NCBI GenBank assembly: GCA_900617105.1
Contig: UYFQ01000594.1
Coordinates: 1-64,000, forward strand
From: Hydrurus foetidus
Taxonomy: Eukaryota
DNA: 64,000 bases
Reading direction: 5' to 3'
The notes beneath the pieces are model-generated. The model had not been told where the DNA came from. It saw only the letters and a list, made by a program, of their open reading frames with translations, and did no database searches. Of the stretch, positions 6,301 through 60,459 are shown piece after piece. Numbering within the stretch: position 1 is the stretch's first letter; the number at the start of each line of letters is the position of its first letter. A program made the position numbers and the translations under genes.

Positions 6301-8265
6301 TGGCACGCGTGACATCTTCAGGTAAGATGTCGCAGTTTAGAAATGTCCCAGCTCTCAACGCAGAAATGAATTTCTGATCTGGTGGGAATCCCAAACTCGC
6401 TTGCAAACGGCGTGCATCGATGCTTCTCTGAACTTCGCGTTTCGAGAATTTGGCTTCGTTGGCTTCCGTTGTGGCAAGTTTTGTAGAGTATAATATGTTC
6501 ATAGATGATGTTTCTATCACCACGGAGTGAGCATATGCAGTTCTGCGCTCTGCGGCGTCAGAATATCTCGGCTCTGGAGGCGTTGCCAAATCGTTGACAT
6601 ATAGCCCTCCACGATGTTGAAATTTGTAGGTATTCTGATCAGTATGAAGCAAAAATGCATCTTGATCTATTGTAGAACCCTGGCGAAACTCCCAGTTGTG
6701 TCCTTGCAGCAGACAATCCGATGCCGAGATGATGGAGAGTCCAGCACGTGGGTCAAAGTGAACGATGCCAATGTCGCGAAGGTTTGCTGTTTTAGTTACA
6801 GTGAGAGAACCATGCAAGCCATTGAATACAGTTGGAGTGCATGTCACAATGTTACTCAGCACATCTGCACATGTGATAATGGTGCCTGTAGCTCCTGTGT
6901 CGAAGATGGCCTCCGATGTACTTCGTTGATTGATGTTACGGTTGGCGGAAAAATCGGTCCGAGGACCGAGGGTTGCGAGTTTCACCGGTGAGGTGGTGTA
7001 GCACACACTACAGTTCCTTTCGTCATATTGGTTCTCGTCATCCTCTTGATCCCACATTTGGCCAAAAGCAGTGTAGACATCATCTGAAGCACTGGAGTCA
7101 ACTCCATCAGTATGTCTCCTGGCCGAATATGATATTTGTGGGGCTGAAGGGGGCTCTCCAGCGGCCTTCTTTCTGCACTCACTAGCACGATGTCCAGCCT
7201 TTCCACAGTGGTAACACGTTCCACTGAATTTACCCTCCTTCACATCTTTAGCAAACGTGACTTTAGGTTCCTTGATTTTCGCTGGGTTAATTTTCTTGGC
7301 TTTTTCTTTGACGGGTGATTTCTCTCCCTTTGGGGACCCACCCGGTTTGACGGGGTTCTTCGCTGCAAGTGCCGTATGGGGGTCACTATCGCTGATTGCA
7401 ATGCGCTACCCTTTGTCCCACGATGGAATCTAGTTGCTCCATTAATTGCCTCCACCAGGGTCTTCGGATAGATGTCAATTGCGGTGCACTCCAGGGAATT
7501 ACTGAGGTAGTTTTTGTAGTCGTGGTAGACCTGCACGGTACTACTCAGACCATCAATGAACCTCATAGATTGTTGTTTTGCATCTGGAATTTGTGCTGCT
7601 GGAACTCCTGTTGCAGCGAGTCGATCAAAAAGCTTCACCGCACGACGTCCGTACGTTACGATGTCTTCGCCCGTACTCATGGTGAGTGTATACCAATCCC
7701 GTAGGGCCTGGGACCGCTCTAATTCCTGATTCCCATCACATCTTGATGTGACTACTGACTTGATTACATCAAGTAGTCCAAGTGGGTCGTCAAATTTGAC
7801 AGCGATGAAGTTTGCCTCCACTACCAGAATTGCATTGAGTGATGGTGAACACATCGATCGAATCAGTCGATAAGCTGATCTACGGTCCTCCATTTGCTTT
7901 CTCCTCATCTTTGTCACGACCGCTCTGTCGTTATTCAGGTCTGCCATTATTAACTTGGCTCGAAATCCTTTTGGATCAGTGATTTCGTCCAACGCCTCCA
8001 ATGCAGTGAAGTCTGGTTCCGAAAATAGGTACACCTCGTAGGCCGGTTTTAGGGTCAGCATCATAGGGTCGGGACAGATCGACTCGAGATCCTGAAAGTT
8101 GACTCTCATGTACTCTTTCAGTCTCTGAATGTTATCGTCCCATTCTTTCCACCCGTTGTGAGTGATCTCAGGGAGACTCTCTGGCCTCACACCATCTCCA
8201 GGCGTGGTTTTTTCGGCCTTCTCAGATTTGGATTGGGCAGCGCCCTTCTCGCCTTGCTTGCTCAT
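3376..8265 (-). CDS. Copia gag-pol polyprotein, interrupted at ~7380, ~4511 and ~3840
   Basis: Gag 8265-7380; zinc knuckle CYHCGKAGHRASEC; protease FDTGA; integrase HCD..FTSDNE..IER; RT KARF..G, DVGSAYLNA, KALYG, YVDD; RNase H IDAA..SSTESE..EQDNQS..SDYFTKPL. Confidence 0.93.
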
Positions 8266-8291
8266 TCTGAGCAGCTCACGACTTCTAATTA

Positions 8292-9596
8292 TCTTGGAAT
8301 AAGTCTGCCTTTTGGATCCTGGATCCAGTCAGAGCACCTGGTTGATAGCAGTGGTTCGTTCAGAACACACTTTGCTTTCAGCTAGTCGACCAAGTCGTTC
8401 CAACAGCTCACTCAAGTGTAGGTATAATGGCTCACAGCCATATAGTCTCTTTTAATTAGAAGTGCTCATCATGTCAAAACAAAGCAGTTCATGGCTAGCT
8501 ATACTAGCTATAGTTGACTGTTCACAGTCATCATCAGTTGCAACTTCCAGTACAGTTCGAGTGATGGTCTTGAGTCTGAAAACGCTACCCTCGCTCCTCC
8601 GCTTGGGCTTAGATGATATTACCCCAAAGGGATTTCCCCCAAGGGGATCGTCCCCGTAGGGATAGCTATGCTATAGAGTGGGGGACCCTTTATTTCTTAA
8701 AAACTCCAATTAAGAACGCTTTATTTTCCAAAATTTTACGGAAATGACTCTAAATCCGTGAAATAAAATATCGTTTAAAGGGTGATTATAAGACCTCTGA
8801 GAAGTACGAAATCGATATCCGGAATGCGGAAAGCGTCTCACACGGATTTTTTAAATACGGAAATGGCATAGTTGGGATCTGACATTTTTCAAAACCTCAA
8901 TGGAACATCACAATCGACACGAGGCATTCTCTGCAGATCACACCAGATGCAGCAGCTGACCAATAAATCCCGCTGCTGTGGCTTTTCTCCAACTCTGGTT
9001 TGCATGGGGTGTTTTGCCCCCCTCCATGTTCGCTTTCTCCTCGAAAAACTTTTGAACAACTTTCTGAACAACTTTTGGTGCAATCGGCACTGTTTTTTTC
9101 ATAGCAGCATTCTCTTTCGCTGAGGCCATCATGATCAAAAAAGGATTCATATTCTTGGATACGGGGGAGGGCAATTTTGCAACGCAGACAGATACTGATC
9201 TTTAAAACGTCAGAAAGTTGTCGGGACACGTTTGCAATTGTCGCAAAGTTGCAGCAGGCAACGTTTCCTTTCCATCCTACAGGGACCGATTGAACTATCT
9301 TTCGGTTAACCGGTTAGCTTTGCTACCAGATTCGGCTAGTTGCAGAATCCGTTTCACGAAAATTGGGCTAAATTCGTACATTGATTTCAATTAAGAAATG
9401 ATTATTCTGACACATTTAGACCCCCCAAACATAACTCCTTTCCAGTCATCCATATCAAAAATTAGATAGCCTCCAATTTTCTAGAGTATCAGACGAGTAC
9501 AGAAATGTACTCAGAAGTACCATCCGGTTGATGGTCCGTTTACTGGAATTAATCTTGGAGAGCAGTTCTTAATTAGGTCCCCCACTCTATCCAACA
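8292..9596 (-). repeat. Copia 5' LTR, split by a 912-bp TIR element near its outer end
   Basis: 8292-8675 matches the 3' LTR up to CTATA. The remaining TCCAACA resumes at 9590-9596. Confidence 0.93.
8676..9587. mobile_element. Non-autonomous TIR element with TA TSD
   Basis: 12-bp TIRs GAGTGGGGGACC / GGTCCCCCACTC. The empty site CTATATCCAACA is known from the sister LTR and shows a TA duplication. Confidence 0.9.
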
Positions 9597-38524: not shown

Positions 38525-39853
38525 ATCTTGAAATATTAGTGTCCTGTTAGTGACATATACACGCACCACATTTCTCATTTCTCTTCATTCTCCTGTGACG
38601 CAGTCTAAGCGTATGTCGAAATGTTCTTGAAATCCTTCTTGTATCCTATTTAGTACCCAACTCCATCTTCCTCTACCTCGTTCTCTTCTTCTCCTCCTCT
38701 TTCTTCTTCGTAACTGTAATTTCAACGACGAAGAAAAATTTTTCGAAGAAAGCGAACGTAACTTTTTTTCTCTCATATAAGAATTGACTTATTGATGAGT
38801 TACAGCATCTAAAGCATTTAAATATTGTGCGAAGGAAAGTGCAAAGAAGCAACTTAGTCACGCAATTAAATTCTACAGAATTTGTATGAGAATGAGATTG
38901 AACACGTATTTTTTTTAAAAGTGAATGGAGTTTTTATTTTGCTGATGCGGTCAGTGATAAATTTGAAGTGTGACATTTAACAGTGATGAGCTTGTGCTAT
39001 TGCTGGGCGATTCAAATAGTAACACTGAGGATATGAAGACGTCTCGCTGGGCCCGGGCCCACAGAGCCGTTTTGAATTAATTAATTAATTTTCGAATTTT
39101 ATGTGGGCCCAGGCCCATGGCGTGCATCGCGTCGCCAACAGCATCGATGATCACTCATACGTGCCGTTCTCCACACTTCACTTCATCTTCCAGAGTCCTG
39201 AGCGACTCATATCAAAACCATCGTTTTGGGATTTCAGCTTTTTTTCCTCTTCGATTCCCAAACAGCTTCGACTGCCGGAACAAATTTCGTGAGGAAATTC
39301 GCGCTAGCTACTCTGCGATTTGGGATTTTTCGTAGATACCACCTGTCGGATCAACGAGCGCTGATTGTCCGCACCGTTTGCTCGAGGTATCATTAGTCGC
39401 CGACATCATAATGCCTGATTTGACGCCTTCCTATGATCACTGAGTAATTAAACGCTGGCAAATTTCAAAACAGGTGGCGAATTTGGAGTTTCATCGTCGG
39501 AGACTAGCTCAGAGCAACGAGCGCTGTTTGCCCGCACTGTTAGCGAAAGGTATCATTTGTCGCAGTCGTCTGAATGCCTGATTTGACGCCTTCCTGTAGG
39601 TCAATGATCAATAAAACGACTAAGACAAAAAAAAAAATTATCTGGAATTCGAGATTTTTGATAGGGGCTCGCTGTCGGATCTTTAAGTAAAGCGCCCTGT
39701 TTGCTAGAAGTAGCATTTAACCTCACCGCGGGCGTTCTGACTTAAATTTAACATACTATGTATTTATGTACTTTTCAGAAAGCGGGAGCATACGATATTC
39801 TCTTGTGGTAGCACTCTGCCGCCTCCCCCTTTTGGTCAGTAGTTCGATTCCCG

Positions 39854-41225
39854 ATGTCGTCAGACTCTTCCGACGACGACAGTCTTTTTGAGCTTGATAT
39901 CTCAGAGGAGAAAGTTGCAGACTCAGACCAAAACATTGGTCTTGTTGTAGAAAGTTATAGATTTAGTAGAGGTGAAAAAGGACGACTAGTAACAACTCAT
40001 TGTAATCCAAGATCTTTACAGAATGATCAGTACTTAACCTTATCGAGAAAGATGAATAAAGTCGGGAAAGAACTGGATTCGAAAGTTGGGAAAGAAATAT
40101 TTTGGGAATCAAGTTGAGAAGGCATTAATACAGCCCAGTAAATCTCTTCAAGTGGAGAAACCTCTGTTTTTGAAGGTTTCCTCGTTAAGCATTTCAGTGT
40201 CAGATCGAGTTTCTCATACGACACCTACCACTCTCCCAAGTACATATGTTCCTGATCAAATGGAAATCACATCGCTGCTGCTTATTCAACGATTAGATTC
40301 AACTCCTGCTGTTTTGCCGATCCCTACTATCATCTGCATCCCACCACCGGTTCCAATTTCGGCCATAATTGAGGAAGATGAAAATACAAGTAACGAGTTG
40401 TACGGCTTTCGTTGGGCGAAGAGTTCTTGTTCCTTCGACACTATTTCTACAATTCTTCTCTATTTCTACATTTCCTTATCTCGTGATCAGAGAGACGAAT
40501 TTCTGACGGTGATTCCAATCTTCAGGGACAACTTCGAGAATGTCATGATGTCATCAGTCACATCATTAGCTCATGCAAAAGAAAAATTGGTGCATTTTTT
40601 CATGGGAGGTGTAGAGCCCAAATTTGTCACTGAAACGCACTACGCGGTTGAAGCAGTTTATGATCATATCATGCGATCAATCACTGATCAAGGCGACTTT
40701 ATGAGAATTCATTATACTATTACAAGTCACTGTGACGATACTGAATGTATAGGCTATGGGTCAAGAATTCGTGGTCAGAATCGTCATGTATCTTCATTTG
40801 AGAGCTGCACTTTACTGGACGGAAACTATGATACCGATGTGCATGAATTAGTTGAAAATTACTGGGCTCGAAAAGTTCATACTTGTCAGTCATGCAAGAA
40901 ATTGCTAAATGTTACAAGGGACTTCTCTAGTCAGAATCCGATCATGATCACAGTTAGTGTCAACCTTATGGACACATTGATCGATTCATCCATCAACCAC
41001 AAGGGGTCTGACTACTCCTTATTTGCTGTAGCTTACACCGACGAAATTCACTACATTGCCAGAATCATTATAGATAATACAGTTTACGAGTACGATGGAA
41101 TGAAATATACTGGTCAACTTCGATTAATTGAATGTCAAGATCCGTTTGCCCGATGAATAAAAACTTTGTCAGGGTCAAAATGTAAGGCACAAATGATCTT
41201 TTACAAAATAGACAATATTGTTTGA
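39854..41225 (+). pseudogene. Transposon-borne papain-fold cysteine protease, USP/peptidase C19-like
   Basis: Cys box GFRWAKSSCSFD; Zn pairs HCDDTEC / TCQSC; His-Asp box YSLFAVAY..HYIARI..YEYDGM. Frameshift at ~40100 and in-frame TGA at 41154, after which plausible sequence continues (KAQMIFYK). Confidence 0.65.
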
Positions 41226-41629
41226 GTGTGAATAAGTTATCGGGTATTTTATTTCTTAACACAATTCATTTACAACGAGCATAAATGCAACCAAAAGTTC
41301 ATATTGATATCACATAAACTAAATTTTGATCACCTATAAAATATTAAGCCCATATCTTTTTTTCGGATCATTACACTTTTTTTAACAACTTAAATAAAGA
41401 TAAACACAGATACCTCTCAGCCATTGAAATTCTTATCTTTTTTTGCTGAATCTTTTAAGGTAGATTCCGTCTCATCGGGCCCGGCCACGGGCCCGGGCCC
41501 AGCGAGACGTCTTCATATACGGAAAATGTCGACACGGAAACTGACGCGAAAGTGACCGAAAAGCGTGAAAACCGAGAACTTCAGTTCCTGATCTGTTACT
41601 TTTCACTTTCTGTGGCACACGGGCTATTA

Positions 41630-41849
41630 TTACCGTAGCAGAATAAAATGTCTGCTTTTCGTGCCCAAAACTCAGACACCTCGGGTCACGTCCAAATCAC
41701 CCCACACAATACTAAAAAAGCAAAAAATCTGGGGAACCTTCCTCTTTATGATTTTTAGTATGGTGTGGGCTCCGTTTTTGACCATGCCACACACACGTTT
41801 GAGTTGGATTTTGGGCATGAAAAGCAGACATTTTATTCTGCTACGGTAA
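41630..41849. mobile_element. 220-bp MITE with ~40-bp TIRs and TA flanks
   Basis: TTACCGTAGCAGAATAAAATGTCTGCTTTTC(G)TGCCCAAAA ... TTTTGGGCA(T)GAAAAGCAGACATTTTATTCTGCTACGGTAA, with TA on both sides. Confidence 0.85.
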
Positions 41850-41854
41850 TATAG

Positions 41855-44800
41855 TTCTATTCCCAAAAGCTTTCCACTCTCCTATTTCGTACGTTCGCGT
41901 AAGTACGGTTGACCCAAGGTCCCCACTTACAGCACCGAGTATGAACACCGACAAACGCGCACGTACCCGACCTCTCATTTAGCTCACAAAACCCGTCGCT
42001 GGACTTGGCACCGTACTTATGCGTACGTGCGCACCACATTGGTGGACTTGGTCACTCATAAGACTTGTTTTGTTACATTGGGGTTCGCTCTTGTGAGCAC
42101 GGGGAAAGTATCTCCTTCTTCTAGAAGGTTCTCCATGTGGATTGTTATGGCTCCTTCCCCCAGTGAACACATGAGTGGTCAGATAAACAAAACGATAGAT
42201 AAAATGATAGGCATGGTTGGCTACGGGGTGTGAAAAAAGCTCGGCACTCGGCGGCGCAGTATTTACGAAATATGCAAATTGGTATGCTGCACTCTACGCT
42301 ACAGTATGGGCAGGCGTGCAAATCAGTACTGTACGCTTGTGCGAGGTTCAGGTTTGAAAAAAAAATCACATCGAGGTCCAGGAATTCCACGAAGTGGAAA
42401 TCTTCTCTACAGTCCAGAGAACCTATGTTGGAATCCGCTCACTACTCCCACCTTCAGATTCTATTCCCAAAAGCTTTCCACTCTCCTATTTCGTACGTTC
42501 GCGTAAGTACGGTTGACCCAAGGTCCCCACTTACAGCACCGAGTATGAACACCGACAAACGCGCACGTACCCGACCTCTCATTTAGCTCACAAAACCCGT
42601 CGCTGGACTTGGCACCGTACTTACGCGTACGTGCGCACCACATTGGTGGACTTGGTCACTCATAAGACTTGTTTTGTTACATTGGGGTTCGCTCTTGTGA
42701 GCACGGGGAAAGTATCTCCTTCTTCTAGAAGGTTCTCCATGTGGATTGTTATGGCTCCTTCCCCCAGTGAACACATGAGTGGTCAGATAAACAAAACGAT
42801 AGATAAAATGATAGGCATGGTTGGCTACGGGGTGTGAAAAAAGCTCGGCACTCGGCGGCGCAGTATTTACGAAATATGCAAATTGGTATGCTGCACTCTA
42901 CGCTACAGTATGGGCAGGCGTGCAAATCAGTACTGTACGCTTGTGCGAGGTTCAGGTTTGAAAAGAAAAATCACATCGAGGTCCAGGAATTCCACGAAGT
43001 GGAAATCTTCTCTACAGTCCAGAGAACCCATGTTGGAATCCGCTCACTACTCCCACCTTCAGATTCTATTCCCAAAAGCTTTCCACTCTCCTATTTCGTA
43101 CGTTCGCGTAAGTACGGTTGACCCAAGGTCCCCACTTACAGCACCGAGTATGTACACCGACAAACGCGCACGTACCCGACCTCTCATTTAGCTCACAAAA
43201 CCCGTCGCTGGACTTGGCACCGTACTTACGCGTACGTGCGCACCACATTGGTGGACTTGGTCACTCATAAGACTTGTTTTGTTATATTACATTGGGGTTC
43301 GCTCTTGTGAGCACGGGGAAAGTATCTCCTTCTTCTAGAAGGTTCTCCATGTGGATTGTTATGGCTCCTTCCCCCAGTGAACACATGAGTGGTCAGATAA
43401 ACAAAACGATAGATAAAATGATAGGCATGGTTGGCTACGGGGTGTGAAAAAAGCTCGGCACTCGGCGGCGCAGTATTTACGAAATATGCAAATTGGTATG
43501 CTGCACTCTACGCTACAGTATGGGCAGGCGTGCAAATCAGTACTGTACGCTTGTGCGAGGTTCAGGTTTGAAAAAAAAAATCACATCGAGGTCCAGGAAT
43601 TCCACGAAGTGGAAATCTTCTCTACAGTCCAGAGAACCTATGTTGGAATCCGCTCACTACTCCCACCTTCAGATTCTATTCCCAAAAGCTTTCCACTCTC
43701 CTATTTCGTACGTTCGCGTAAGTACGGTTGACCCAAGGTCCCCACTTACAGCACCGAGTATGAACACCGACAAACGCGCACGTACCCGACCTCTCATTTA
43801 GCTCACAAAACCCGTCGCTGGACTTGGCACCGTACTTATGCGTACGTGCGCACCACATTGGTGGACTTGGTCACTCATAAGACTTGTTTTGTTACATTGG
43901 GGTTCGCTCTTGTGAGCACGGGGAAAGTATCTCCTTCTTCTAGAAGGTTCTCCATGTGGATTGTTATGGCTCCTTCCCCCAGTGAACACATGAGTGGTCA
44001 GATAAACAAAACGATAGATAAAATGATAGGCATGGTTGGCTACGGGGTGTGAAAAAAGCTCGGCACTCGGCGGCGCAGTATTTACGAAATATGCAAATTG
44101 GTATGCTGCACTCTACGCTACAGTATGGGCAGGCGTGCAAATCAGTACTGTACGCTTGTGCGAGGTTCAGGTTTGAAAAAAAAATCACATCGAGGTCCAG
44201 GAATTCCACGAAGTGGAAATCTTCTCTACAGTCCAGAGAACCCATGTTGGAATCCGCTCACTACTCCCACCTTCAGATTCTATTCCCAAAAGCTTTCCAC
44301 TCTCCTATTTCGTACGTTCGCGTAAGTACGGTTGACCCAAGGTCCCCACTTACAGCACCGAGTATGTACACCGACAAACGCGCACGTACCCGACCTCTCA
44401 TTTAGCTCACAAAACCCGTCGCTGGACTTGGCACCGTACTTACGCGTACGTGCGCACCACATTGGTGGACTTGGTCCCTCATAAGACTTGTTTTGTTATA
44501 TTACATTGGGGTTCGCTCTTGTGAGCACGGGGAAAGTATCTCCTTCTTCTAGAAGGTTCTCCATGTGGATTGTTATGGCTCCTTCCCCAGTGAACACATG
44601 AGTGGTCAGATAAACAAAACGATAGATAAAATGATAGGCATGGTTGGCTACGGGGTGTGAAAAAAGCTCGGCACTCGGCGGCGCAGTATTTACGAAATAT
44701 GCAAATTGGTATGCTGCACTCTACGCTACAGTATGGGCAGGCGTGCAAATCAGTACTGTACGCTTGTGCGAGGTTCAGGTTTGAAAAGGAAAATCACATC

Positions 44801-45198
44801 GAGGTCCAGGAATTCCACGAAGTGGAAATCTTCTCTACAGTCCAGAGAACCCATGTTGGAATCCGCTCACTACTCCCACCTTCAGATTCTATTCCCAAAA
44901 GCTTTCCACTCTCCTATTTCGTACGTTCGCGTAAGTACGGTTGACCCAAGGTCCCCACTTACAGCACCGAGTATGTACACCGACAAACGCGCACGTACCC
45001 GACCTCTCATTTAGCTCACAAAACCCGTCGCTGGACTTGGCACCGTACTTACGCGTACGTGCGCACCACATTGGTGGACTTGGTCACTCATAAGACTTGT
45101 TTTGTTATATTACATTGGGGTTCGCTCTTGTGAGCACGGGGAAAGTATCTCCTTCTTCTAGAAGGTTCTCCATGTGGATTGTTATGGCTCCTTCCCCC
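41855..45198. repeat. Tandem array of 604-610-bp units (5 full plus 1 partial), made of the YR element's terminal repeats
   Basis: Units start TTCTATTCCC at 41855, 42459, 43064, 43674, 44278 and 44887, and differ at only a few sites. Confidence 0.97.
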
Positions 45199-45227
45199 CC
45201 ACCCCGCCGAAGGACTCGTAGCATCCC

Positions 45228-46451
45228 TCACACTGCACCAAGCGGCAGCCAACTTCTCACATCGTCCGTACTTGGTTGAGTACCCCCGACCAGAGAGTTC
45301 GACGACAGTGGTCCGTGTCCTCCTGCAGAGTAGTCGTAAACGGCTCTCATGACCGTGGACCCTTGGACGTAGTTCCCTCTATCGATCATGTCTAGCTGCG
45401 ATACCCCCATAGCTCTCATCTGCGTGGTCGCTGCTTTCCGAAGAGAGTGCGATGAGAAATAGTCCGCCGGTAGTCCGGCATCGCGACACGCTCCCTTAAC
45501 AGTCTCTCTCACCATTCTTCCCTGAAGTAGTTTCCTGTCTACTTTCCCTGACTGTCGCTCCAGATACCGACAGAAGAGCTCGTCTGAAGGCAGCACCTTC
45601 GAGAAAGCTATGAACGTAACTAGGTTCTATGGAAACTGACTCTCTCCCGATGATCGTCTGCAAACCGTCTTGGCCTTCACGGGTGCTTTAGTTTTCTGGG
45701 ACGCGGTAAGTACTCGGAGCCCCAGTACGTGCGAGGCTGGAGCTCTACCCTCCCTTAGATCCCTGAAGAAGGACGCCCCGCCACCCACTTGGTAGCTTTC
45801 CGTAGCCCCTCGGATTCCAAACACCAAATCGCTGCACCTAACACTGTGATCCCCCGCTCCCACCTCATGGGCGGTGTACTCGGATAACCGAGCGTCCATG
45901 TCGTAACCCCACATGCACCCAATGTAGGTCATCCTGCTATCGATATCCCCTCGTTCCCACCCCCTGCCAGCCCAGAGCTTCACCCTCATGTCCTTGAGTA
46001 AGCTCTCGCACAGCGGCAGCTTCACACTCCCTTTGGGTCCCCCGTCTTTCTTCGCCCGCAACTCTTTCGTGCTCATGCGGCATGCTGTTCGTGCAGCCGC
46101 TACTATCGCTGAATCCAGAAAAGCGGTTGACTGTAGCGCCGCTGCGAACTTCAGTCGGATCCCTGCCGTCACAGAGGTGGCCTGCTTCCCCCGCATCCCC
46201 TCGTCATAGCGTGATTGTAGAAAGAGGCCCACTATGGCCGGTTTGTCTTCCTCCAGCCATTCGCTTAGCAGGGGGTCCTCGGTGTCTAGGTCCTCATATA
46301 AGAATCTGCACCACTTGATCCAGTGCCCTTCGTATGCTTTTGCTGTCGCCGCAGTGACCGACTGCGCTACGAACGACCCCACTCCCGCCCTGCTGAGCTC
46401 CGGTAACTGGCGCCGAAGACCTAAAGAAAGAGTGAGGGGGTCCAGGGACAC
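45228..46451 (-). pseudogene. Tyrosine recombinase with one in-frame TAG at 45627-45629
   Basis: N-terminal TAKAYEGHWIKWCRFL; catalytic ARLSEY, SQKT, SHSLRKAATT, RGNY..AVY. The two ORF-track pieces are in the same frame. Confidence 0.9.
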
Positions 46452-46483
46452 GGCGGGTAAGGGTGTTAGTGCGATGTAGATGT

Positions 46484-48990
46484 CTATGAGGCTATGGCCT
46501 CGACTATCTTATGCCAAAAAGTTATGAAGTTGACTTCATTTATAAATGGCTCGCATGGACGGCAGCTCTCTATAAGCTGTAGCACCCGACTGTCCTCGCC
46601 CAGTTTAAGATCCGGTACCCCTCTCAACCCTAGACCTGCTAAGACCTCATCAACCGTCCTCCCTGACTCTGATACTCTCGAGAGCTGATCACAACGAAAG
46701 TTTGCCTCCCCCGAGATATGCGTTGCGACCTTGGCTTCTATGCCGTACGATACACACACTAGAGTGTACACCATTGCGGCGTTCGATACTTGACTCCCAC
46801 GGGTTCTCTCCTTTTGAGCCCATGTAAGTGCAGATATACTGTCTCCACGTATCTCGATGTCCAGGTGTGTTACACCTAATCGCACTAACCCTAGAATTCC
46901 GACTATTGAGCCGATGAACTCGCACACATTCTGAAACTTCGACTCCGTCACGAAGCCGAGTTGTCGGAGATCTACCGCACTGGCCCCCACACACACCTCC
47001 GAGTCGCGGTCCCTTCTATAAATGAGACAACCTGCACCGTGCAGTGAAGCATCCGTCTCGACAATGTACTCAGTCACATCACTTTTAATGATGCGAGGGT
47101 TCGGGTGAACCTCTGTTCGTTGTAGCGAACGAGGAATAGGATTGCTCGCCAGCATCTGATTGCTATTTAGGTTTCCTCCGCGAGAGTAAATGTCGCGTGG
47201 CGGTCTAGTCTGCCTGCCATCGCTCTATTCAGAGCCCCACAGAAGGGGCGCATGATTCGACATATGCGTCCGTATCGACTCCCCCATGATGCCAATCTCT
47301 GTATGGTCTTCAGGGACATCTTCCCACTTAGGTTGATAGCCATGAAGCCGTGGACCGCCCTGAGGAAATTCTTCCTCGCGATTGAAACTAGTTTTAGGTT
47401 TAAATCGATCGTGTAGCCTATGACTTTGAGTCGTGTGCCCGTCTCGGACTTCTCATCCGCCACTGCCTTGGGCCCCAAAAGACTAGTGCAGATGTCCTTG
47501 GCGAGCTCCATGTCAGATGCCAGGTCAGACTGAAAGCAGACTCCTATCACGTCGTCCACGTACATCTCTGTGGAGCTTCTCAGAGCTCGGGCGAATTCCC
47601 ATTTCAATGCCCTTGTCACCACCTGGAACGCTGCTGGTGTGCATGCCCAACCAAATATGCCACAGAGCTGTAAGTAGATGAGGTCGCCTGTTACTTCCAT
47701 GCCAAACAGGCTGACATCGTCCGGTCGGAACGACAGAAGGGTATATGCACCTTTCAGGTCCATTTTCCAGATTCTCAAATCGCTCCAACTCTTCCCTGAA
47801 TGGCTCGCCCCATTCACCGTAAAGAAGTCTAATATCATGACCGCTATGTCATCTATAGTCGGATGACGAATAGGCCCATAGTAGTCTTCTGCTTCCTTGG
47901 TTGCTTCTTCTGTGTTGAGTGCAGTCCCATCCACGTACGTCATATCGCCTATCGGACGCCCAGATTTCTTGCCTCTCTTCTGCGCCCAGTGTGCTGTGCA
48001 CAGATGCAGTCTAGGGATGGTGTCTATCGCTAGACTCTTTGGCAACAGGAACCCTAGACCACCTGACACGGTCTCGCCTACCATCTTATTCACAGCTTGA
48101 TGGACCTTCAGGTAGGAGGTGCGGAGCGGTGTCAGAACACCTGCACCGTTCGGTTTGAAGCCGGCCGGTATTGGAACACGCATTCCCACAGCCAAGTCGC
48201 GCAACAGCTCTAGTTCCGGGTTATCGGCTGCCAGTCTACTGATGCGCTCCAGATTAAGCCGACTAGATTGCAGTGTCGTCAATCTAGTCCTTACCATATC
48301 CGAGAAGTCGTGATTTGCTTCTTTGAAGGACTTTAAGTCGTTCGCAAGCATGTCCTCCGGAAACTCGTATCCCTGTGCCCACTCCACAGCTTCAACTACG
48401 CCGTAGTTTGTGGCTGCCATATCCTGCGCATCTTTCACAGTTTCCACCAGATCCGCGAAAGGGAATACTTCCCCTGGTGCGAAGTATGATGCCATGGTGG
48501 CCATTATTCCACGTATCGTGGCTGATTCTACGCACTCTAGAGTGTGCTCCTCCTCCAGCGACCGCATGTAGGCGGGCATTCTATCTGGAAGAGTCTCCTC
48601 TTCATCACATCTGGATGACTGCATGTGGGCAGTCACCGCATCAGATCTCGCTATTAGCACATCTTCAGCAGGTGTTCGCATGTGGGCGAACGCTTTGTCG
48701 GATCTCATCCTCGAAAGGACTCCAACCGATGCTTGCATGTGAGCCAACATCGTGCCCTGCCCCCTTGCTACCTCCATTCTATCAGACGTTTGCATGTGGG
48801 CAAACATCGAGGTGTCTCTGCATGTCTCCTCTTCAGATGGCTTCTGCACGTGAGGTAGCTTCAAGCGAGATCTCTTTCTACACTCCTCATCTCTCCCTGC
48901 ATCCTCACCCGCACTTGATGCCGCCCCACATCGACCAGGGTTCCATTGCTTGTCCTGTGGTTGACTCCGCGGAGTGCAACCACCTTCATC
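46484..48990 (-). pseudogene. YR-element pol: reverse transcriptase plus RNase H (in-frame TAA at 47167, frameshift at ~47087)
   Basis: KMDLKGAY, IFGWACTP, YVDD, VIGYTID (RT); TDASLHGAG, NVCEF, RGDSISAL, HISGEANFRCDQLSR (RNase H). Confidence 0.92.
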
Positions 48991-50640
48991 TCACGCCTTT
49001 GCTCTCATTTTCTTCAGTGCCGCGTCCCGCAAGTTCTCAGGTAAACATTTGATAGCGACGGAAATATCCGCCTTGGCAAGGGCGGATACGTTGCAGTGCT
49101 CCTTGGGACAGGCCGCGCCTCGTGTGCACACCACTAACTTTCCATTCTCTTTCTTGGCTGCAAAGTGTGCCAGCACATCATAGGAGCAGATGACACTCGC
49201 ACTAGGGGCCGCGACCGCCTTCTTTGCTCCAGCAGCGCTAGGTGTAGCGGTGCCCTTGCGAGGTGTTAGTGCTAGGGCGGGCTTGATGTATGTCCTGAAG
49301 TGCAGGTCTTGTAGGAGCACTTTGTCTCCACACAGGCTTTGTACTGTCGCATCCATCATGGCTGACAGGAGGATCGCACAACCGGACGGTGTGTGCATCG
49401 TAAGCTCTGGAAAAGACCGTGACTGTCGCTCCGTCCGGACCGATGAGCCCCATCGCTCCAGGCAACTTTCCATCGCGTGTTGAAGCAGATCATCAGGTAC
49501 TAGCTTCAATGGATCAGCTGCTCCTATGAGTGCCACACGTGTTTGCTGGAAGCAGTCCAGGAAACTCCCCGAGTAGAACACTCTCATAGCCATCTCCAGG
49601 GTTGACAGGTCCTCTGCCACCTGGCGACGACCCTGCAGGGTAGGTTTGCTCTGTAGGGTGACCCCCGGTGATAGGCGGAAGTCACTCAGCACTATACTCC
49701 CACCACGTCCAAATTTGGCCTGGAGAAACGCTGTAAGGGTTGTGACTTCAGTCGCCACTTTCAGCGTTGCAATTTGGAAAATCAAAGGCGCCCCTGAGAA
49801 GGGTCCCATAGAATCCAAAAATGGATCAATAGCTGCTGCCCAGATGTATCTTAAGTACTCCTCCACCTGTAGAAGATTTCCTCTCCCAGCCACCTCAAGT
49901 TCTCTTCCTTTCGTCAGTCTCCAGACTGGTCCCAGTATAGCCTCTCTCTTCGAAGACTGTGTCATGTCGCGACACAGCCGACGGCCTCCATCTAAGTCAT
50001 CCAAATATCCCCTAGCTACCGTCTCACCTGTCTTCTTCAATGACGTTGTGCTGGCTCCCTCAGTCTGCTCCTCGACACTTACTGCACCCGACTCTGAAAT
50101 GTTGCCTAGATTGGCACTGTATTCTTCTGCGGACTCTTCGTTGATTCCCATAGGTACCACGAACCTCGATGGAGTGCTAAACTTAACGAAGGATCCTGCG
50201 AGAATAGTGAGGTCGGAGAAAATTGTACCCAGAATTCTTGTCGTTGTCGGCGTAATCGAGATGATTATCGCGAGCACCCAATTGAGATCAGCTACTGCGT
50301 CGCCGTTCAAAGTCTCCCCCTCATCGAGATCCTCTGCAGGCCACATGATAAACGTCGCTGCTGTTACATCGACTGCTCTTCTAATTGTAGACAGTTCTAC
50401 AGCGAAACGCTGCCCCTCTTCTGTTAGATTGTTTCCTGTCATTGCAGCTGCTGCCGCCAATCTTGCAGCAGTTGTGTCTGAAATGATATGGAAACGTGGT
50501 CCGATCACCGCATCGGTGTCTCTATTGTGCCTTTTCCTCGAGACTTTCGTCGACGAGTTACTCGAAACGTTCGTCGCACCCACGTCCTGATTGTAGATAT
50601 CTATCAGGATGTTTGCGATGACGTCTGTCGGTGCGCTCAT
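48991..50640 (-). CDS. gag-like ORF1 of the YR retrotransposon (~549 aa)
   Basis: Long open frame from MSAPTD, ending in a Cys/His finger (ICSY...CTRGAACPKEH), in the ORF1 position upstream of pol. Confidence 0.8.
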   Translation of the reverse strand: MSAPTDVIANILIDIYNQDVGATNVSSNSSTKVSRKRHNRDTDAVIGPRFHIISDTTAARLAAAAAMTGNNLTEEGQRFAVELSTIRRAVDVTAATFIMWPAEDLDEGETLNGDAVADLNWVLAIIISITPTTTRILGTIFSDLTILAGSFVKFSTPSRFVVPMGINEESAEEYSANLGNISESGAVSVEEQTEGASTTSLKKTGETVARGYLDDLDGGRRLCRDMTQSSKREAILGPVWRLTKGRELEVAGRGNLLQVEEYLRYIWAAAIDPFLDSMGPFSGAPLIFQIATLKVATEVTTLTAFLQAKFGRGGSIVLSDFRLSPGVTLQSKPTLQGRRQVAEDLSTLEMAMRVFYSGSFLDCFQQTRVALIGAADPLKLVPDDLLQHAMESCLERWGSSVRTERQSRSFPELTMHTPSGCAILLSAMMDATVQSLCGDKVLLQDLHFRTYIKPALALTPRKGTATPSAAGAKKAVAAPSASVICSYDVLAHFAAKKENGKLVVCTRGAACPKEHCNVSALAKADISVAIKCLPENLRDAALKKMRAKA

Positions 50641-50936
50641 GGTCCTTTTGCCGCTCAGATTTGCTAAAAGTAGGAAGAGTTTTGCAACTTTTTTGCAACC
50701 GTTGTCAGTACGACACTCCGGAAACTGAAAACTGAAAAAATCTCGGCACTCGGCGGCGCAGTATTTACGAAATATGCAAATTGGTATGCTGCACTCTACG
50801 CTACAGTATGGGCAGGCGTGCAAATCAGTACTGTACGCTTGTGCGAGGTTCAGGTTTGAAAAGGAAAATCACATCGAGGTCCAGGAATTCCACGAAGTGG
50901 AAATCTTCTCTACAGTCCAGAGAACCCATGTTGGAA

Positions 50937-53900
50937 TTGGCATTTCGCGATTCTACCACTTGTTTTTGAAATTCTGCTAGCAGAATTTATGTCTTTTTTG
51001 ACCCTTTTTTTGAGGAATTCTGCCACTTGTAAAAAGGAAGTTGCTGCTTAAGTTCGTATTGTGCCACTTTAAAAAACGGAATTTCCACTTTACATTTAAG
51101 TGATGCCATTTTAACGGTATCATTATGCTACTACGTACTTAAATTATGCTACTTAAAAAGTTGTTAGATCATTAATATTGCTTTCTAGATCGAAAATTCT
51201 CATTGTATCTGATCATTACCGAAGCTTCCTTATAATCATTCAGACATTGGTGCTGATGGTAATCAAAAAGGCAATTTAATAAAGAAAACACTCGCTCAAC
51301 TGATGCACTAGAGCACATCACTAATGCCACCTCAGCGGCCACCTTGTACCATAGGGGTAATGAAATATAATATCTTCTCCAAAATGCCCACCCGTCATCT
51401 TCTTCTCGGTCAAATCCGTCGACCAATTTCTTGTAAGTGTGTAGCTCTGCGTGCAGGCCATCAAATAGAGGCACCGCTACAGGCAAGTGCTGAATGAAAA
51501 CGATTTCTTCTTCGAGTGCCTCATATGTAGTATCTTTGACAAACTGGTAGCCAACAAGACGGCAACCTCTAAGTACTTGCAGGGTGTCCTTGAATCTTGT
51601 CAGCGAGTCTGACTCAATCTTCTCCAACACTACGACAGCTTTAGCAACAGTCTGCTGTATGAGTTCTTGTTGTCGAGGTAAGTTGTTTGGAGCTATTTGT
51701 GCAGCTACAGCAGTGCATGCTGAAACACAGTCGACCTCCATATATCTGTGGACGACATTCCTCATGTGATGATTGAGATTGTTCCATGAATCGAAAGCGT
51801 AGGGTGCTAGAAAACCATCTCCTTCAAAGTGGTTGCAAAAGTGTGCTATCGGTTCTCCTGCATCTTTGATGAGGGCCAACTCCAAGCGGAGTGCATCCTC
51901 ACCTGATGGAAGGTGATTACCAGCAGGGTTGTGGAGGATTCCTCGCAGCGTTTCCATCAGATTATCGCACCCAACATCTTGATTTTCTATTATGTCTCTG
52001 ATAAGGTCGAATCTGTCGTTTACTTGGACAGCAGTGCGAAACTCAGCCATCCAGCGAATGGCATGATTTTTCATGCCACCTTCACCGAGTGCTCTCCGTG
52101 TAGCGGCCCGAACCTTCGAACCTTGGGTCAGACATTGGCTCCATGCCTGAAGAAAGTTGTGCGCGGTCGGTGTCGCCTTCTCAAACAACTTCATGGGAAG
52201 GTTTGATGTATGCGAGACACATACGAGATCACTGCACTCTGCAAATATGGCCTTAATGACTTCATTGGCAACTCCATTAGTCGCACAGCCATCGACAGTG
52301 TTGAATCTCAGTTTCAGGGGATTCTGTTGTGCCAATGTCATTACTTGCTTGATGACTTGCGCTGCCAGAGAGTTGCCGTACAATGGACTCTCTAGGAAGC
52401 TGAGAGACAGGAGCCGCTGCTGAATAGCTTTTTTCGGGCAGACGAAGCGGACTACCTAAATTCAATCATTCAGTATTGGTCAGTAATGTTGATCACATTT
52501 TTTAAGGGAATTTGAATCGTAGGGAACTTACCACAGCCAGTGACTCAGCTACATTGATCGTTCCATCGGAGCTGATTGAGAAAGCTGCTGCTTCGTTGAG
52601 CTCACTGATTGTTTCTACATGCTCTTTTTTCCTTAACAGAGGGATCATGTCGCTGCATGCTTGCTTCGGGCAGATGGCATGGTAGTCTTCGAGTAGTAGA
52701 CGGATTTCACAACCGCTATCAAGCATCGTAAACGGCATTCCAGTTTTCAAGAGGGCGTGAGCTACTGACATACGATATGCGTTGACATTCAGAGGTAACG
52801 TTGCTCCTGCTGCTTTCTCTTCCGTTTCGTTCTCGGCTACCAGGCCTTTATAACTCAGCATTGTCAACTGACTCTTGTCTCTCCTCTTCATGTTATTTTC
52901 ATGCGTTTCGCCAGTGATATGACTCTTGATGCTGGAGGACTTCAGCGCTATTTCTTGCATTCCACAGGCTCGGCAGCACAATTTTCCTGCTACGACAGTG
53001 AGGCCACTTTCTGAGAACTCTTTGGCGCGATCGTAGACAGACTTCGCATTTTTTCTTGTTGTCGATCTTGCCTTTAATATCGACCTTTTGTATACACCCT
53101 TGCTTGTTCTTGTTTTTCTTTTTCTGTCAAGTTTACTTTTCTCAGGAAGGTCTTCATTTATCCTTTCTAATTTATTTTCGTTATCCGATCCACTATCTTG
53201 ATCCGATGGTTCTGGTGAACTAACATCATCACTGTCGACATTGTAATTTTTCTTGGGGACATAATCTTCCTCGTCATCCGAATCCGCGTCATCTGACGCA
53301 CAAATTTCTATTTGCTTAAAAACTCTCTTAGTCCCCTTTCTGGTAATAGCTTTGGGCTTTAGGGCAACTCTTTCAGAGGAGGTACTAGATCTGACGTCGC
53401 CTGCAGACCCGGCACCAGGCTTAAAGTAGGAATATACCGCCGTGGCTGTGGGCGTTGATGTATAATTGGAAGATGGCTGAGAAGCCGACGACGACGATGA
53501 CGAGCTGCATGGCAAATTTCGCCTCTTCATCTCACTGGCCTTGCTTTCATCATCATCCTCATCGGTATCGTAATCAGCAGTAATCTCTTGCATTCCGGTG
53601 ATATTTTGGCCGATAATTAAAAGTGGAGGATGCTCGAAATCAAGGTCAGAGAAGAGTGAAGCGATAGGCGGGAGCGGGAATGTAGTAAAATAAACCATCA
53701 TATCACAGCAGCCATCCAATCTTGCGGCTAAAAAAGAAATTTGGCTACTTTAAAATTGGAGAATGCTACTATTATGTTTTGATTTCTACTTAATTATAAA
53801 ATTATGCCACTACTATTTCCATTATGCCACTTATAATTTTGTCTTGCCACTTAGCATAAATAAGTGTGAATTTATGCCACTTGTTCTGCTAGCAGAATCC

Positions 53901-53959
53901 AAAATCCCTATAGGGTCAAATTCTGCTGAGCAACTGCTAGCAGAATCGCGAAATGCCAA
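50937..53959 (-). mobile_element. Apparently autonomous hAT transposon (3023 bp)
   Basis: 18-bp TIRs TTGGCATTTCGCGATTCT / AGAATCGCGAAATGCCAA; perfect 8-bp TSD TGTTGGAA (50929-36 / 53960-67); subterminal TGCCACT repeats. Confidence 0.95.
51172..53593 (-). CDS. hAT transposase, two exons (intron 52531-52456)
   Basis: Zn finger CCRACG..SHITGETH; SSDGT; GTAAG..TTTAG intron joins ESLAV|VVRFV in frame; TVDGCATN; CVSH; IRW; SSASVERVFS. The start could be up to ~110 nt further upstream. Confidence 0.92.
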
Positions 53960-55643
53960 TGTTGGAACCCGCTCACTACTCCCACCTTCAGAAAAAGGAA
54001 AGTTCACTTTTCCGTCGAAAGTTCACTTTTCCGTCATGTCGACATTTTCCGTATATCCTCAATGTAAGTAATTTTGAAGACGAATCTTCTCACAACCTGT
54101 TTAATTTGATCTGTTATTGCAGAAACCCTCTTGTTTGTTCACAGCAATGGTGAATATTTTTAGAGTGATCATGATCATTTTTAGCAGATACAAATTCGCC
54201 GCAACTGAACCCCCAGAATACTCCTTACAGAGTGTATTTTGTGAAAGTTTAATTACCTCGGCTATTAGAATGTAACTGATTCTTTTTGTCTTTAAAAAGA
54301 AAACAAGTAAAAAGTTTAATATGTGAAATTAGTTACAACATTTTGAATGCCACTGAAATTTACAAAATGCAAGCGTATTTACGTGTCATATCTATTATCT
54401 AACTCTGGTCTCCAAGCCTGAGTCTTGAGATGCGGCTCCGACTGTTCCACGATTTTGATCCTGGATTGTCAGGCACATTGGAAGATGAGATCAATTTTCA
54501 GAAGTGAAATATGAGCTGAAATGACCTCAACATCAGATTTGTCGAGGATTTCATCACCTGATGCGCTCGAAGACCTATGCTCTTCGAAGCTGGAGAAAGA
54601 ATCACAGCTCGGCTAGCATCGACATTTGGAGCCTACAAAAGCAAATACATTTTAAAATGGTGAGAGAGGTCAAATTTGATGTTGAGGAACGCTATCATCT
54701 ATTTTAGAGTATTTGCAGGGTGATTTTTGAGTGGATACATCAGAAAATGATCATTTTTCGACCACAGAATAAAGAGTTAAAGAGGTTGGTGGAGCAAAAA
54801 CTTTGCATTTACATCGAGTGAGCAACCATTCAATAATTTCTGCTCGTTTTGGGCTCCACCATGTCATATTGACGCCGCCTCCTGGGCAGCATTCTGCGTG
54901 AAAGTGTAATTTCTTGGTCCATAACACCTTTTCAGTCTTTCACCCACAACTATTTTCAATGATCGAATTATTGACTTCTGAATAGCGCATGTTGTAGACC
55001 ATGTAAAGATTAGTGATTTGGCCGAAGGGAATTGAATATAAAAATTTATTGATGATGATAGGGCACTAAACGTCAGTATTTTAAATTCTTCCTGTTACGG
55101 ATTTGAGAATCGTGAAAAAGTACCCAAAGTTTGGAAGTGTACCCAACTGTCATCCAGTATATTCGTCTCTGCGCACAATTCTAGCTGATACCAGAGCTCC
55201 ACCATTTCTCTAGCGGTGGAGCTTCTGAGTAGCTTGGGCTTCTCAAGAAGGCCAACTTTACCAGGTTCGATACTCAAATGTTGCTCTGGACTACAACTGA
55301 ATTTTGTTTTTGCAGCAACTTATGTTGATGATTTTCAAAACCTTGCTGACCCTCTTGCCACTCGTTTTGTTGCCCGAGAATCAGGAAAAAGTGCGAGCAC
55401 ATCGTAGGTCATCTGGATCCGCCGGTAATTTTCCAATTGATGGTGAGCTCATCTTTCTGTGAACATCCAAGTGCCATATTTTTTCCCTAAGAATTGGGTG
55501 ACTTTTTCTGATGCTGGAGTCTGGGAAATGTGTTTGATTCCCTGTAGTTTTGATTTTCATGTTGCATGATGACTTCTCCTCAATGGCTTTCAATCAGATT
55601 AGCTCATATATGTTCCTAACTCGAATTATCATCAGGAATTTCG

Positions 55644-58584: not shown

Positions 58585-60459
58585 TCAATGGGAGTATTGA
58601 CCCTGAAGTAGGTGAGCTGGTGAGAGGTTATTATTCGAGTACTCCGTCTTGACATGATCCAACTCTACATTCGTTGCGTACACAGGCTGAGGCTGGCAAA
58701 TTGACATCTGTTGATGGCCCGATTCGAAACTCGGATCCATTTTCTGTGACCCACAAATTCTTCCTCCGAGCGAGGAGAAGAACCCTGAGCTGGGCGCGGC
58801 TGAGGGTTGATACGACAGCCTTTGGAAGCCGCAGAACACGTCGTTGATTTCGGGTTGTTCCATGGCGTTGCTTTGGCCGGTCGAGAAGCAACCGGATGCT
58901 GCGTTGGTCGCTGCAATCGAACAGCAGCCTGTGACACCCCAGTCGAACGAGGATCTGTAGAATGGTACGTCAATATCGTTGGAGCGACCGACCTGGGTCT
59001 CGATAACGATACCGTCGTCCATCCAGTCGTCGAAAATGTTCTCATCGAGGTCGATGCTTGATGCTGACGGGATGTTCATTCTGAAGTCTTCGCTGAAGGT
59101 TGGGGACAGGGGCATTGTGGACACGGGCGCGAGTCTGTCCTTCACGGACAGTCCATTGAAAGGCGTTCTGTTGTACGTTTGTGAGACGTATGACAGATCC
59201 GTGCTGCCGGAAAGTCGTAAGAGCGCTTTTCCTATGGAGCTGGAGAGCGGCAGTGGCATGGCGAAAGTGGGGGAAGGACACGTTGACACTCTGGAGGACG
59301 ACGGCGAAATGACAGTGGCTGTGGGCTGCTGGGCAGCATGGTGATTTCGCTGCTGGCTCTGCATAGATATAAGGTTGCTATGCGTGAGGTCGGAGAGGAG
59401 GTCTTGCGTGCTGTTGATCGGTTGAGCCCAGCCGGCGCTCATGACTGTTGTCTCTGGAGAGAAATGATGCGTCCTGATCTGACTATTGCTATTCATCTTT
59501 TTGCTTTTCTTTGCGCACTTGTGTGTCTTGGAAGATTTCATCGTCGAACCACTTTGGGCCGGCATTATGTTCCGTATCAGGTCGGCGGAAGATATTGAGC
59601 TGTCGAACATATAAGGTACTACTGAGTTGGAGAAGACGAAGAGCGATCCGTTTTGGAAGCAGTCTGGGGACGGATATGCCAGGATAGGGCAGTGGGCCTG
59701 CATCATGGCTATGGAAGAGCCGCCTGAGGCGATGTCCGTGCGCATCCGACCGCTCGTCTCGGATCCATTTGCGGAGTTCGAGTCGCTGTCGGTGTTCCCG
59801 TCGTTATAGTGGTATGATGATTTCTCGTAATCCCCTGGTTCCTTACGGGATTGGGCGCGGCACGTGGCATGAAATCTGTTTTTGATAGCATTGTCGGTGC
59901 GCCCTGGCAGAGCTTTTGTTATCTGAAAAGGAGTGAGGTGTGACATTAGTCTCGACTGTGCGGTTTGTTCATTTAAGTAGAATTGGGAAGTAAATTGCTC
60001 TCACCTTCGCCCATTGGTTACCGATGGTTTTTTGCATCGTAGATAGTATCAAGTCCTCCTGATAGTATCGGATGGAATGGTGGTTCGTTAGGGATCCGTG
60101 CTTCCGTTCTCGCAGATAAATTTTAAAAAGGCAGAAGAATTTTACCTCTGCTGTCCACTCTCCTTTCTTTACAGAGGGATCAAGGTGATTGTACCACCTT
60201 TCTCTGCACTGCTTCCCCGTTCTCTCGGTAAAACTTTCTCCAACTTTGGTCCACGAACAGGTGCCGTGTTCTTCGATGAGGCTCTTTAATTTCAAGTCCT
60301 CCTCGCCAGTCCATATTTCTAATTGCGGAAGATGTTTAGGTTTATCGTTACAGGGGTGGCCAGTTGATTCGTTCAGCTGCAGGTGGAGTGTTGCTCACTT
60401 TTGCTGCATGTGAGCAGGGTGTGTGAGTTGGGGTCTCGCGTGAGTTCCTTGGACATCAT
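58585..60459 (-). CDS. R2R3-Myb transcription factor, about 4 exons
   Basis: WTGEEDLKL..SWTKV..RTGKQCRERWYNHLDPSVKKGEWTAE | EDLIL..GNQWAK | ITKALPGRTDNAIKNRF, then a long Ser-rich tail. First exon is tentative. Confidence 0.93.

What the first reader, a model, noticed from the sequence alone, without database searches (positions are those of the whole stretch)
41855..45198. Split direct repeats of the YR element amplified into a ~604-bp tandem array of circle-junction copies
Seen on the + strand: (A-B-C)x5, A, [YR RH RT gag], C, with A ~305 bp, B ~70 bp and C ~230 bp. On the sense strand this is the Ngaro/PAT layout A1-ORFs-B1-A2-B2, but with the A2-spacer-B2 block present five times instead of once. 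Each C|A boundary (CCTTCAGA|TTCTATTCCC) joins the element's two termini, i.e. the predicted circle junction. Inference: a satellite arising from YR termini, or a replication by-product that gives the element multiple recombination sites and could shed ~0.6-kb non-coding circles.
Basis: partly seen in the sequence, partly recalled or inferred. Interest (0 to 1): 0.72.

Follow-up and report, generated by a model that had tools for sequence, protein, structure and literature searches.

The report
Retrotransposon tail amplified into tandem array
A broken jumping gene here ends in five tandem copies of the 0.6-kb block that its textbook relatives carry once, and sequence depth in four separate samples suggests its family likely carries many extra blocks too, probably made by out-of-register recombination and possibly passed on when the element jumps.

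Summary
The array is real: five 604-610 bp units plus a sixth partial one at 41855-45198, 98-99.8% alike, each with its own variants. It is the 3' tail of an Ngaro-like tyrosine-recombinase (YR) retrotransposon at 41855-53992 (minus strand), laid out A1-gag-RT/RH-YR-B1-[A2-spacer-B2]x5. New: in contigs of 4 runs from 4 studies, the repeat block is 3.5-17 times deeper than the coding body. In one run the end-to-end junction itself is at least 2-4 times deeper than the body, which dispersed solo repeats cannot produce. So extra blocks exist beyond this locus. Variant switches fall inside units, none at junctions, which favours homologous out-of-register exchange over YR insertion of small circles. 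Neutral exchange from one block seldom gives such averages, so inheritance of multi-block tails is my lead reading, unproven. No second assembled copy was seen; circles and expression are untested. Eight literature searches found no described multi-block Ngaro tail, but key reviews were not held. The scan's notes hold no earlier report of it.

The parts
41855..44886 (-).
44887..45198 (-).
45228..46367 (-). Tyrosine recombinase gene with R, K, HxxR and Y catalytic positions; broken by an in-frame stop at 45627-45629
   Evidence: intact relatives of about 380 aa at 82-89% identity
46484..48849 (-). RT + RNase H gene (YVDD motif; D-E-D-D-type RNase H residues read by eye); frameshift at about 47083-47089 relative to one 748-787 aa ORF in relatives; no methyltransferase
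   Evidence: (table 4)
48991..50640 (-). ORF1, gag-like by position only; no Pfam family
50733..50936 (-).
   Evidence: 99.5% to the C at 44658-44862
50937..53959 (-). hAT DNA transposon inserted in A1; 18-bp TIRs, 8-bp target duplication (50929-50936 and 53960-53967)
   Evidence: weak Dimer_Tnp_hAT hit, E 0.0008, under the curated cut-off; its junction with C is also in runs X1 and X3
53960..53992 (-). Outer end of A1 = 5' terminus of the element
41519..54052 (.). Host of the insertion: an element with 16-bp terminal inverted repeats, flanked by ATAT

Best explanation
This is the 3' tail of a broken Ngaro-like YR retrotransposon in which the A2-spacer-B2 block stands five times instead of once; the block was likely multiplied by out-of-register homologous exchange between its B repeats, and multi-block tails are likely common in the family, possibly because they are copied along when the element retrotransposes. 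Shown: layout, copy number, broken genes, variant mosaic, and excess depth of the block in four runs. Inferred steps: (1) B1-A2-spacer-B2 is already one and a half tandem units, so misaligned exchange or template switching adds or removes whole blocks. (2) A copy that drops to zero blocks would lose the internal junction that is thought to template the ends, so it could not transpose. (3) A transcript that reads through several blocks would hand them to daughter copies. Steps 2 and 3 would let the family average climb. Every added block carries a perfect end-to-end junction, the predicted YR attachment site, but no use of the extra sites is shown.
For: Array and element anatomy. Excess beyond this locus: depth of the A|B joint against the gag|C joint (both occur once in a one-block element) is 3274/575, 118.6/14.5, 344.4/20.7 and 42.5/3.16 in runs X1, X3, X7, X14 = 5.7, 8.2, 16.6, 13.4; against median summed body depth 3.5, 4.7, 12.6, 6.7 (4 of 4 runs laid, of 22 listed). 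The junction itself is amplified: in X3 a 90-nt contig through it has depth 122.7, which bounds junction words at 54-115 against a body of 17-28; dispersed solo repeats carry no junction. Flow check in X1: C depth 3778 against 3850 expected from B-to-C plus gag-to-C. Possible internal control in X1: a second sequence type gives 0.85: 1: 1.93 for A|B: YR: C, the one-block pattern, if those three contigs belong together. Route: 6 haplotype switches among 27 intervals, 0 in the 5 intervals that hold a junction; 5 switches and still 0 when the homopolymer site is dropped (my count). Inheritance: the window's 5 blocks match X1's average, and neutral exchange from one block gave a family mean of 3.5 or more in at most 9% of simulated families over 30 settings. 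Repeats intrinsic to TEs are known substrates for unequal exchange (PMC5932611, passages).
Against: No second assembled copy with an array was seen: none of 67 related loci shows three or more B copies, though short-read contigs collapse such arrays and most end earlier. The tool warns that contig depth is no copy number; against the deepest summed body bin the ratios fall to 1.3, 1.7, 5.4 and 2.7. The junction bound is direct only in X3; in X1, X7 and X14 it is indirect. X1 may be the window's source sample, and X1 and X3 share insertion flanks, so the runs may report the same few loci. The ratio varies about 3- to 4-fold between runs, which also fits a few unstable or body-less arrays. Zero switches at junctions is also expected 29-44% of the time if switches fall evenly, so it only rules out a junction-only route. 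One variant site is a CpG and may recur. The simulation is simple and neutral, and the window was flagged because it had an array. Loose-end tables were cut (117 and 9 rows hidden), so deleted derivatives sharing the ends are not excluded.
Confidence: 0.5

Rival explanations
1. Post-insertion only: elements insert with one block; this locus grew later by unequal exchange, and the surplus in other samples comes from one or a few long arrays, with or without a coding body (A1-to-A-repeat recombination would delete the body and leave an array).
For: The copy is old and dead, and differs from the run's main type at 50 of about 3,850 letters over 7 long X1 contigs (my sum, table 8), close to the roughly 1% between the two unit haplotypes. 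A two-unit duplication explains most of the mosaic. Ratios differ between runs. Only 1 left and 2 right flanks per run are listed for X1 and X3, so few loci may be involved.
Against: Neutral exchange keeps the mean at one block and reached 3.5 in at most 9% of simulated two-locus families. The second type in X1 looks unexpanded, so the expansion seems tied to this family (pairing inferred).
Confidence: 0.28
2. YR-driven growth: 0.6-kb A-spacer-B circles (from solo or internal transcripts, like SIRE) are integrated by the element's recombinase into the internal junction, adding one block at a time.
For: Each boundary is the predicted attachment site. Solo AB repeats are described for Cafeteria Ngaros (PMC8547959, passages) and SIRE equals the A2-B2 block of VIPER (PMC6681497, passages). 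DIRS-1 is reported to insert into existing DIRS-1 copies (PMC7192593, passages).
Against: Inserted units should switch haplotype at junctions; 0 of 6 switches do, and the two variants that flank the junction stay linked at 5 of 5 junctions. Later homogenisation could hide an early role.
Confidence: 0.1
3. The excess depth is an artefact of shared ends: internally deleted non-autonomous copies or diverged subfamilies share the repeats but not the ORFs, so only this locus is amplified.
For: A second type at about 88% identity is in the runs (table 8). Loose-end tables were cut.
Against: No deep alternative joint into C or out of A is listed. In X14 one contig runs through A|B|C|A unbroken. In X1, C depth is fully explained by B-to-C plus gag-to-C.
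Confidence: 0.08
4. Assembly artefact: a single block was written five times.
For: No raw long reads were available; three variants lie in homopolymers and may be errors.
Against: All 10 unit pairs differ, by substitutions as well as indels. The 5-bp indel allele occurs on its own in X1 contigs at depth 1243 (table 4). Block depth is in excess in 4 of 4 runs.
Confidence: 0.04

Closest known systems
Ngaro-like YR retrotransposons (e.g. Cafeteria Ngaro types 1-4, PMC8547959; Ectocarpus Ngaro families, PMC12477816; Xenopus DIRS-53, bioRxiv 2021.08.05.455354)
   Same: gag-like ORF, RT/RH and YR in one orientation; no methyltransferase; split direct repeats A1-ORFs-B1-A2-B2 with the internal repeats behind YR; no target duplication seen.
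   Different: The A2-spacer-B2 block stands five times. All 13 'A-int-BAB' rows returned from the Ectocarpus table and the elements in the passages read have one block. No hydrolase ORF here.
Solo AB repeats of Cafeteria Ngaros and SIRE of T. cruzi VIPER (PMC8547959; PMC6681497)
   Same: The repeated unit is exactly this A-B block.
   Different: Those are described as isolated, dispersed units. Here the units are head to tail, attached to the element, and each boundary rebuilds the end-to-end junction.
TE-derived tandem arrays and satellites by unequal exchange on intrinsic repeats (PMC5932611)
   Same: Likely the same route: direct repeats inside a TE as substrate for out-of-register exchange.
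   Different: In LTR elements the exchange repeats the whole element with a shared LTR. Here it repeats only a 0.6-kb non-coding block that holds the predicted integration site.
Irregular split-repeat elements: TATE copies with 'more complex patterns' (PMC6681497, Additional file 5) and Ectocarpus unknown2-N1/N2 ('multiple split repeats', PMC12477816 supplement)
   Same: Show that extra or rearranged split repeats occur in this class.
   Different: Neither is a five-fold A2-B2 array on an Ngaro body; the TATE authors suspected misassembly or nesting, and the Ectocarpus rows are unclassified non-autonomous elements.

Membership tests
Ngaro-like | RT, RNase H and YR on one strand, order gag-RT/RH-YR | tested here: met
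   RVT_1 passes the cut-off in relative P0048 only (1 of 4 pol relatives scanned), and Phage_integrase hits stay under the cut-off
Ngaro-like | Split direct repeats, internal repeats downstream of YR, A1 = A2 and B1 = B2 | tested here: met
   A1 99.5% to the nearest A copy; B copies about 98-100% alike
Ngaro-like | No methyltransferase domain | tested here: met
   117 bp between the pol stop and the YR start; no methylase family in 4 of 4 intact pol relatives at E up to 1
Ngaro-like | Exactly one B1-A2-B2 block | tested here: not met
   five blocks; hence reported as a structural variant, not as a standard member
Ngaro-like | No target-site duplication | tested here: inconclusive
   no duplication at the flanks, but a MITE sits 3 bp from the left end and may have changed that flank
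Ngaro-like | RT and YR group with named Ngaro elements in a tree | not testable with these tools
   no named reference sequence was returned; PMC4157794 warns that structure alone is homoplastic
PAT-like | Methyltransferase domain after RNase H | tested here: not met
   definition from PMC4157794
DIRS1-like | Inverted terminal repeats with an internal complementary region | tested here: not met
   the element's repeats are direct; the inverted repeats found belong to other transposons
VIPER/TATE | YR ORF ahead of RT/RH | tested here: not met
   YR follows RT/RH here; order in TATE from PMC6681497 Additional file 5
Solo AB / SIRE-type unit | Single dispersed A-B unit without an end-to-end junction | tested here: not met
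   tandem units with junctions; junction amplified in X3
TE-derived satellite | Long arrays independent of the parent element | not testable with these tools

The most novel reading that the evidence does not exclude
A family of YR retrotransposons whose normal, transposing form carries an expandable array of its own end-to-end junction: block number is inherited through the RNA/cDNA cycle and ratchets upward because zero-block copies are dead, so the element seeds a 0.6-kb satellite made of its own attachment sites at every insertion and could release A-B minicircles.
Probability: 0.35. Interest if true: 0.7.

Novelty: new variant of a known kind. Interest (0 to 1): 0.45.

Why it matters
The replication model for split-direct-repeat elements rests on one internal junction that templates the ends, and it has been tested experimentally only for the inverted-repeat relative DIRS-1, as far as the passages read show (PMC7192593). 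A family with many marked blocks is a natural experiment: unit variants in daughter copies would show where transcripts end, which junction templates the ends and which junction the YR uses. It also shows a direct route from a YR element's ends to satellite DNA, and warns that short-read consensus models would collapse such tails to the textbook single block. If the surplus is only a few old arrays, it is an ordinary case of unequal exchange.

Tried and rejected
No whole genome is held for this window, so other copies could not be counted. No RNA holder was listed; this says nothing on expression. Only Logan contigs, no raw or long reads, were available. Viral contigs: 15 pattern matches, 0 relatives. 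Of 67 metagenome loci, 5 (L015, L021, L022, L027, L033; L021 and L022 are one family) show a repeat behind YR with a period of 703-906 bp, which fits the same split-repeat tail but gives no block number; L022's longer repeat and L020's whole-element tandem may be assembly loops and were not counted as arrays. PDB sequence searches: 0 hits for the YR relative and 0 for the pol profile. The ESM Atlas gave no informative family for ORF1. Earlier scan notes: nothing by sequence, three unrelated bacterial cassette notes by words, and two bacterial notes from the same assembly. A short shared core between junction and target could not be fixed: the window's left end lacks the A that another locus shows. 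A coding role for the unit was rejected: the longest stop-free frame is 104 codons. Literature: 8 searches; one search returned only noise. The kangaroo and PAT papers were not held. The Goodwin and Poulter papers, the Poulter and Butler review, the TOC1 papers and Repbase were not seen and may describe extra blocks. The host lineage was not identified.

Full report
Observation. The array is as described: unit starts at 41855, 42459, 43064, 43674, 44278 and 44887, five full units of 604-610 bp and a sixth partial one to 45198, 98.0-99.8% identical to unit 1, with no N in the window. All 10 pairs of full units differ, by 1 to 8 events.

The element. On the minus strand lie an ORF1 without a family, an RT/RNase H gene and a tyrosine recombinase gene. 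Relatives are many: 474 proteins for the RT among 7,996 candidates scored, and 21 for the YR part among 2,888. None listed has an informative name. Only 117 bp separate the pol stop from the YR start, and four intact pol relatives carry no methylase family, so the element is Ngaro-like by the criteria in PMC4157794 (passages). A tree with named references could not be built. The 5' repeat is split by a 3.0-kb hAT with 18-bp inverted ends and an 8-bp target duplication; its last letters lie at 53992. The layout is thus A1-gag-RT/RH-YR-B1-[A2-spacer-B2]x5 over 41855-53992. The copy is dead: a frameshift at about 47083-47089 splits what is one 748-787 aa ORF in relatives, and the YR has an in-frame stop at 45627-45629. 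Contigs of all four runs laid differ from the window at both places. Each of the five C|A boundaries joins the two termini, and contigs of X1 and X3 leave into other flanks at that boundary.

Is it only this locus? Twenty of 22 listed runs, from 11 studies (one cultured organism, and freshwater, sediment and air metagenomes), hold the element. I laid four, from four studies. A one-block element has one A|B joint, one C|A junction and one gag|C joint. Observed A|B to gag|C depth is 5.7, 8.2, 16.6 and 13.4 in X1, X3, X7 and X14; against median summed body depth 3.5, 4.7, 12.6 and 6.7; against the deepest body bin 1.3, 1.7, 5.4 and 2.7. Solo A-B units, known from Cafeteria (PMC8547959, passages), would raise A|B but not C|A. 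In X3 a contig through the junction has depth 122.7, which bounds the junction words at 54-115 against a body of 17-28. In X7 and X14 contigs run through the junction unbroken at depth 374 and 42.5, but few of their words span it, so these are weaker. In X1, C depth (3778) equals the sum of its two entries (3850), and a second sequence type shows the one-block pattern 0.85: 1: 1.93 if its three contigs belong together, which is my inference. The tool warns that contig depth is no copy number; I use only ratios within a run. X1 may be the source sample, and X1 and X3 share the hAT insertion and one flank, so the runs may reflect the same few loci. Among 67 related loci, 5 show a split-repeat loop behind YR and none shows three or more B copies; short-read contigs cannot count blocks.

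How the blocks multiplied. Five variable sites define two haplotypes that alternate along the array. There are 6 switches among 27 intervals, all inside units; the two variants that flank the junction stay linked at 5 of 5 junctions. Insertion of unit circles by the YR predicts switches at junctions, so it is not the source of this mosaic. An even spread would also leave the junction interval empty 29-44% of the time, so the pattern fits homologous exchange without proving it. B1-A2-spacer-B2 is one and a half tandem units, the kind of intrinsic repeat on which unequal exchange acts (PMC5932611, passages). Reverse-transcriptase template switching between B repeats would leave a similar mosaic and is not separable here.

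Why so many in the family. So either a few arrays grew large, or multi-block tails are inherited. I favour inheritance modestly: the window's five blocks match X1's average, and the second type looks unexpanded. The proposed ratchet (zero-block copies lose the junction template, multi-block copies pass blocks on by read-through) is inference. It extends to split repeats, from my own knowledge, the end-restoring role shown for the DIRS-1 internal complementary region (PMC7192593, passages). The variation of the ratio between runs and the lack of a second assembled array speak for the rival.

Comparison with print. Passages read: PMC4157794, PMC6681497 (plus Additional file 5 whole), PMC8547959, bioRxiv 2021.08.05.455354, PMC7192593, PMC12477816 (plus supplement rows), PMC5932611, PMC12278014 and PMC9940879. 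Those that describe split-repeat layouts give one block. The nearest precedents are SIRE (the A2-B2 block of VIPER, dispersed), solo AB repeats, odd TATE copies and two unclassified Ectocarpus elements with multiple split repeats. Eight searches found no multi-block Ngaro tail. The founding papers, the TOC1 papers and Repbase were not seen, and supplements of bioRxiv preprints are closed, so an earlier mention is possible.

Verdict. A real feature and a new structural variant of a known kind. The local mechanism is probably ordinary, but the surplus of junctions in four samples lifts it above a one-off. Circles, expression and use of the extra sites are untested. Interest 0.45.

Noticed in passing
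window 39031-54056: Two elements with terminal inverted repeats sit side by side and share three ATAT copies: 39035-41514 (26-bp TIR, a 366-aa stop-free frame at 40056-41156 without a Pfam family) and 41519-54052 (16-bp TIR). The outer flanks make the empty site a palindrome. It looks like a double insertion at one target.
   Followed up: partly
window 41628-41851: A 224-bp MITE with 43-bp TIRs lies 3 bp from the element's 3' end.
   Followed up: partly
window 48480-48990: The pol N-terminus has about six degenerate 19-aa repeats; contigs of relatives skip 75-287 bases here, so the repeat number seems to vary.
   Followed up: no
window 48991-48993: ORF1 and pol are in the same frame, separated by one TGA; relatives' pol proteins start further downstream, so read-through is not needed.
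   Followed up: partly
L020:1-12327: A related element stands as whole copies head to tail with a 5,430-bp period at 99.8-100% identity; a real tandem or an assembly loop.
   Followed up: no
window 3376-8328: A Copia-type LTR retrotransposon on the minus strand (RVT_2 and zinc knuckle hits), in several frames.
   Followed up: no
window 58585-60394: A host gene with a Myb DNA-binding domain on the minus strand.
   Followed up: no
window 12000-38400: Dense, varied 4-9 bp microsatellite tracts.
   Followed up: no
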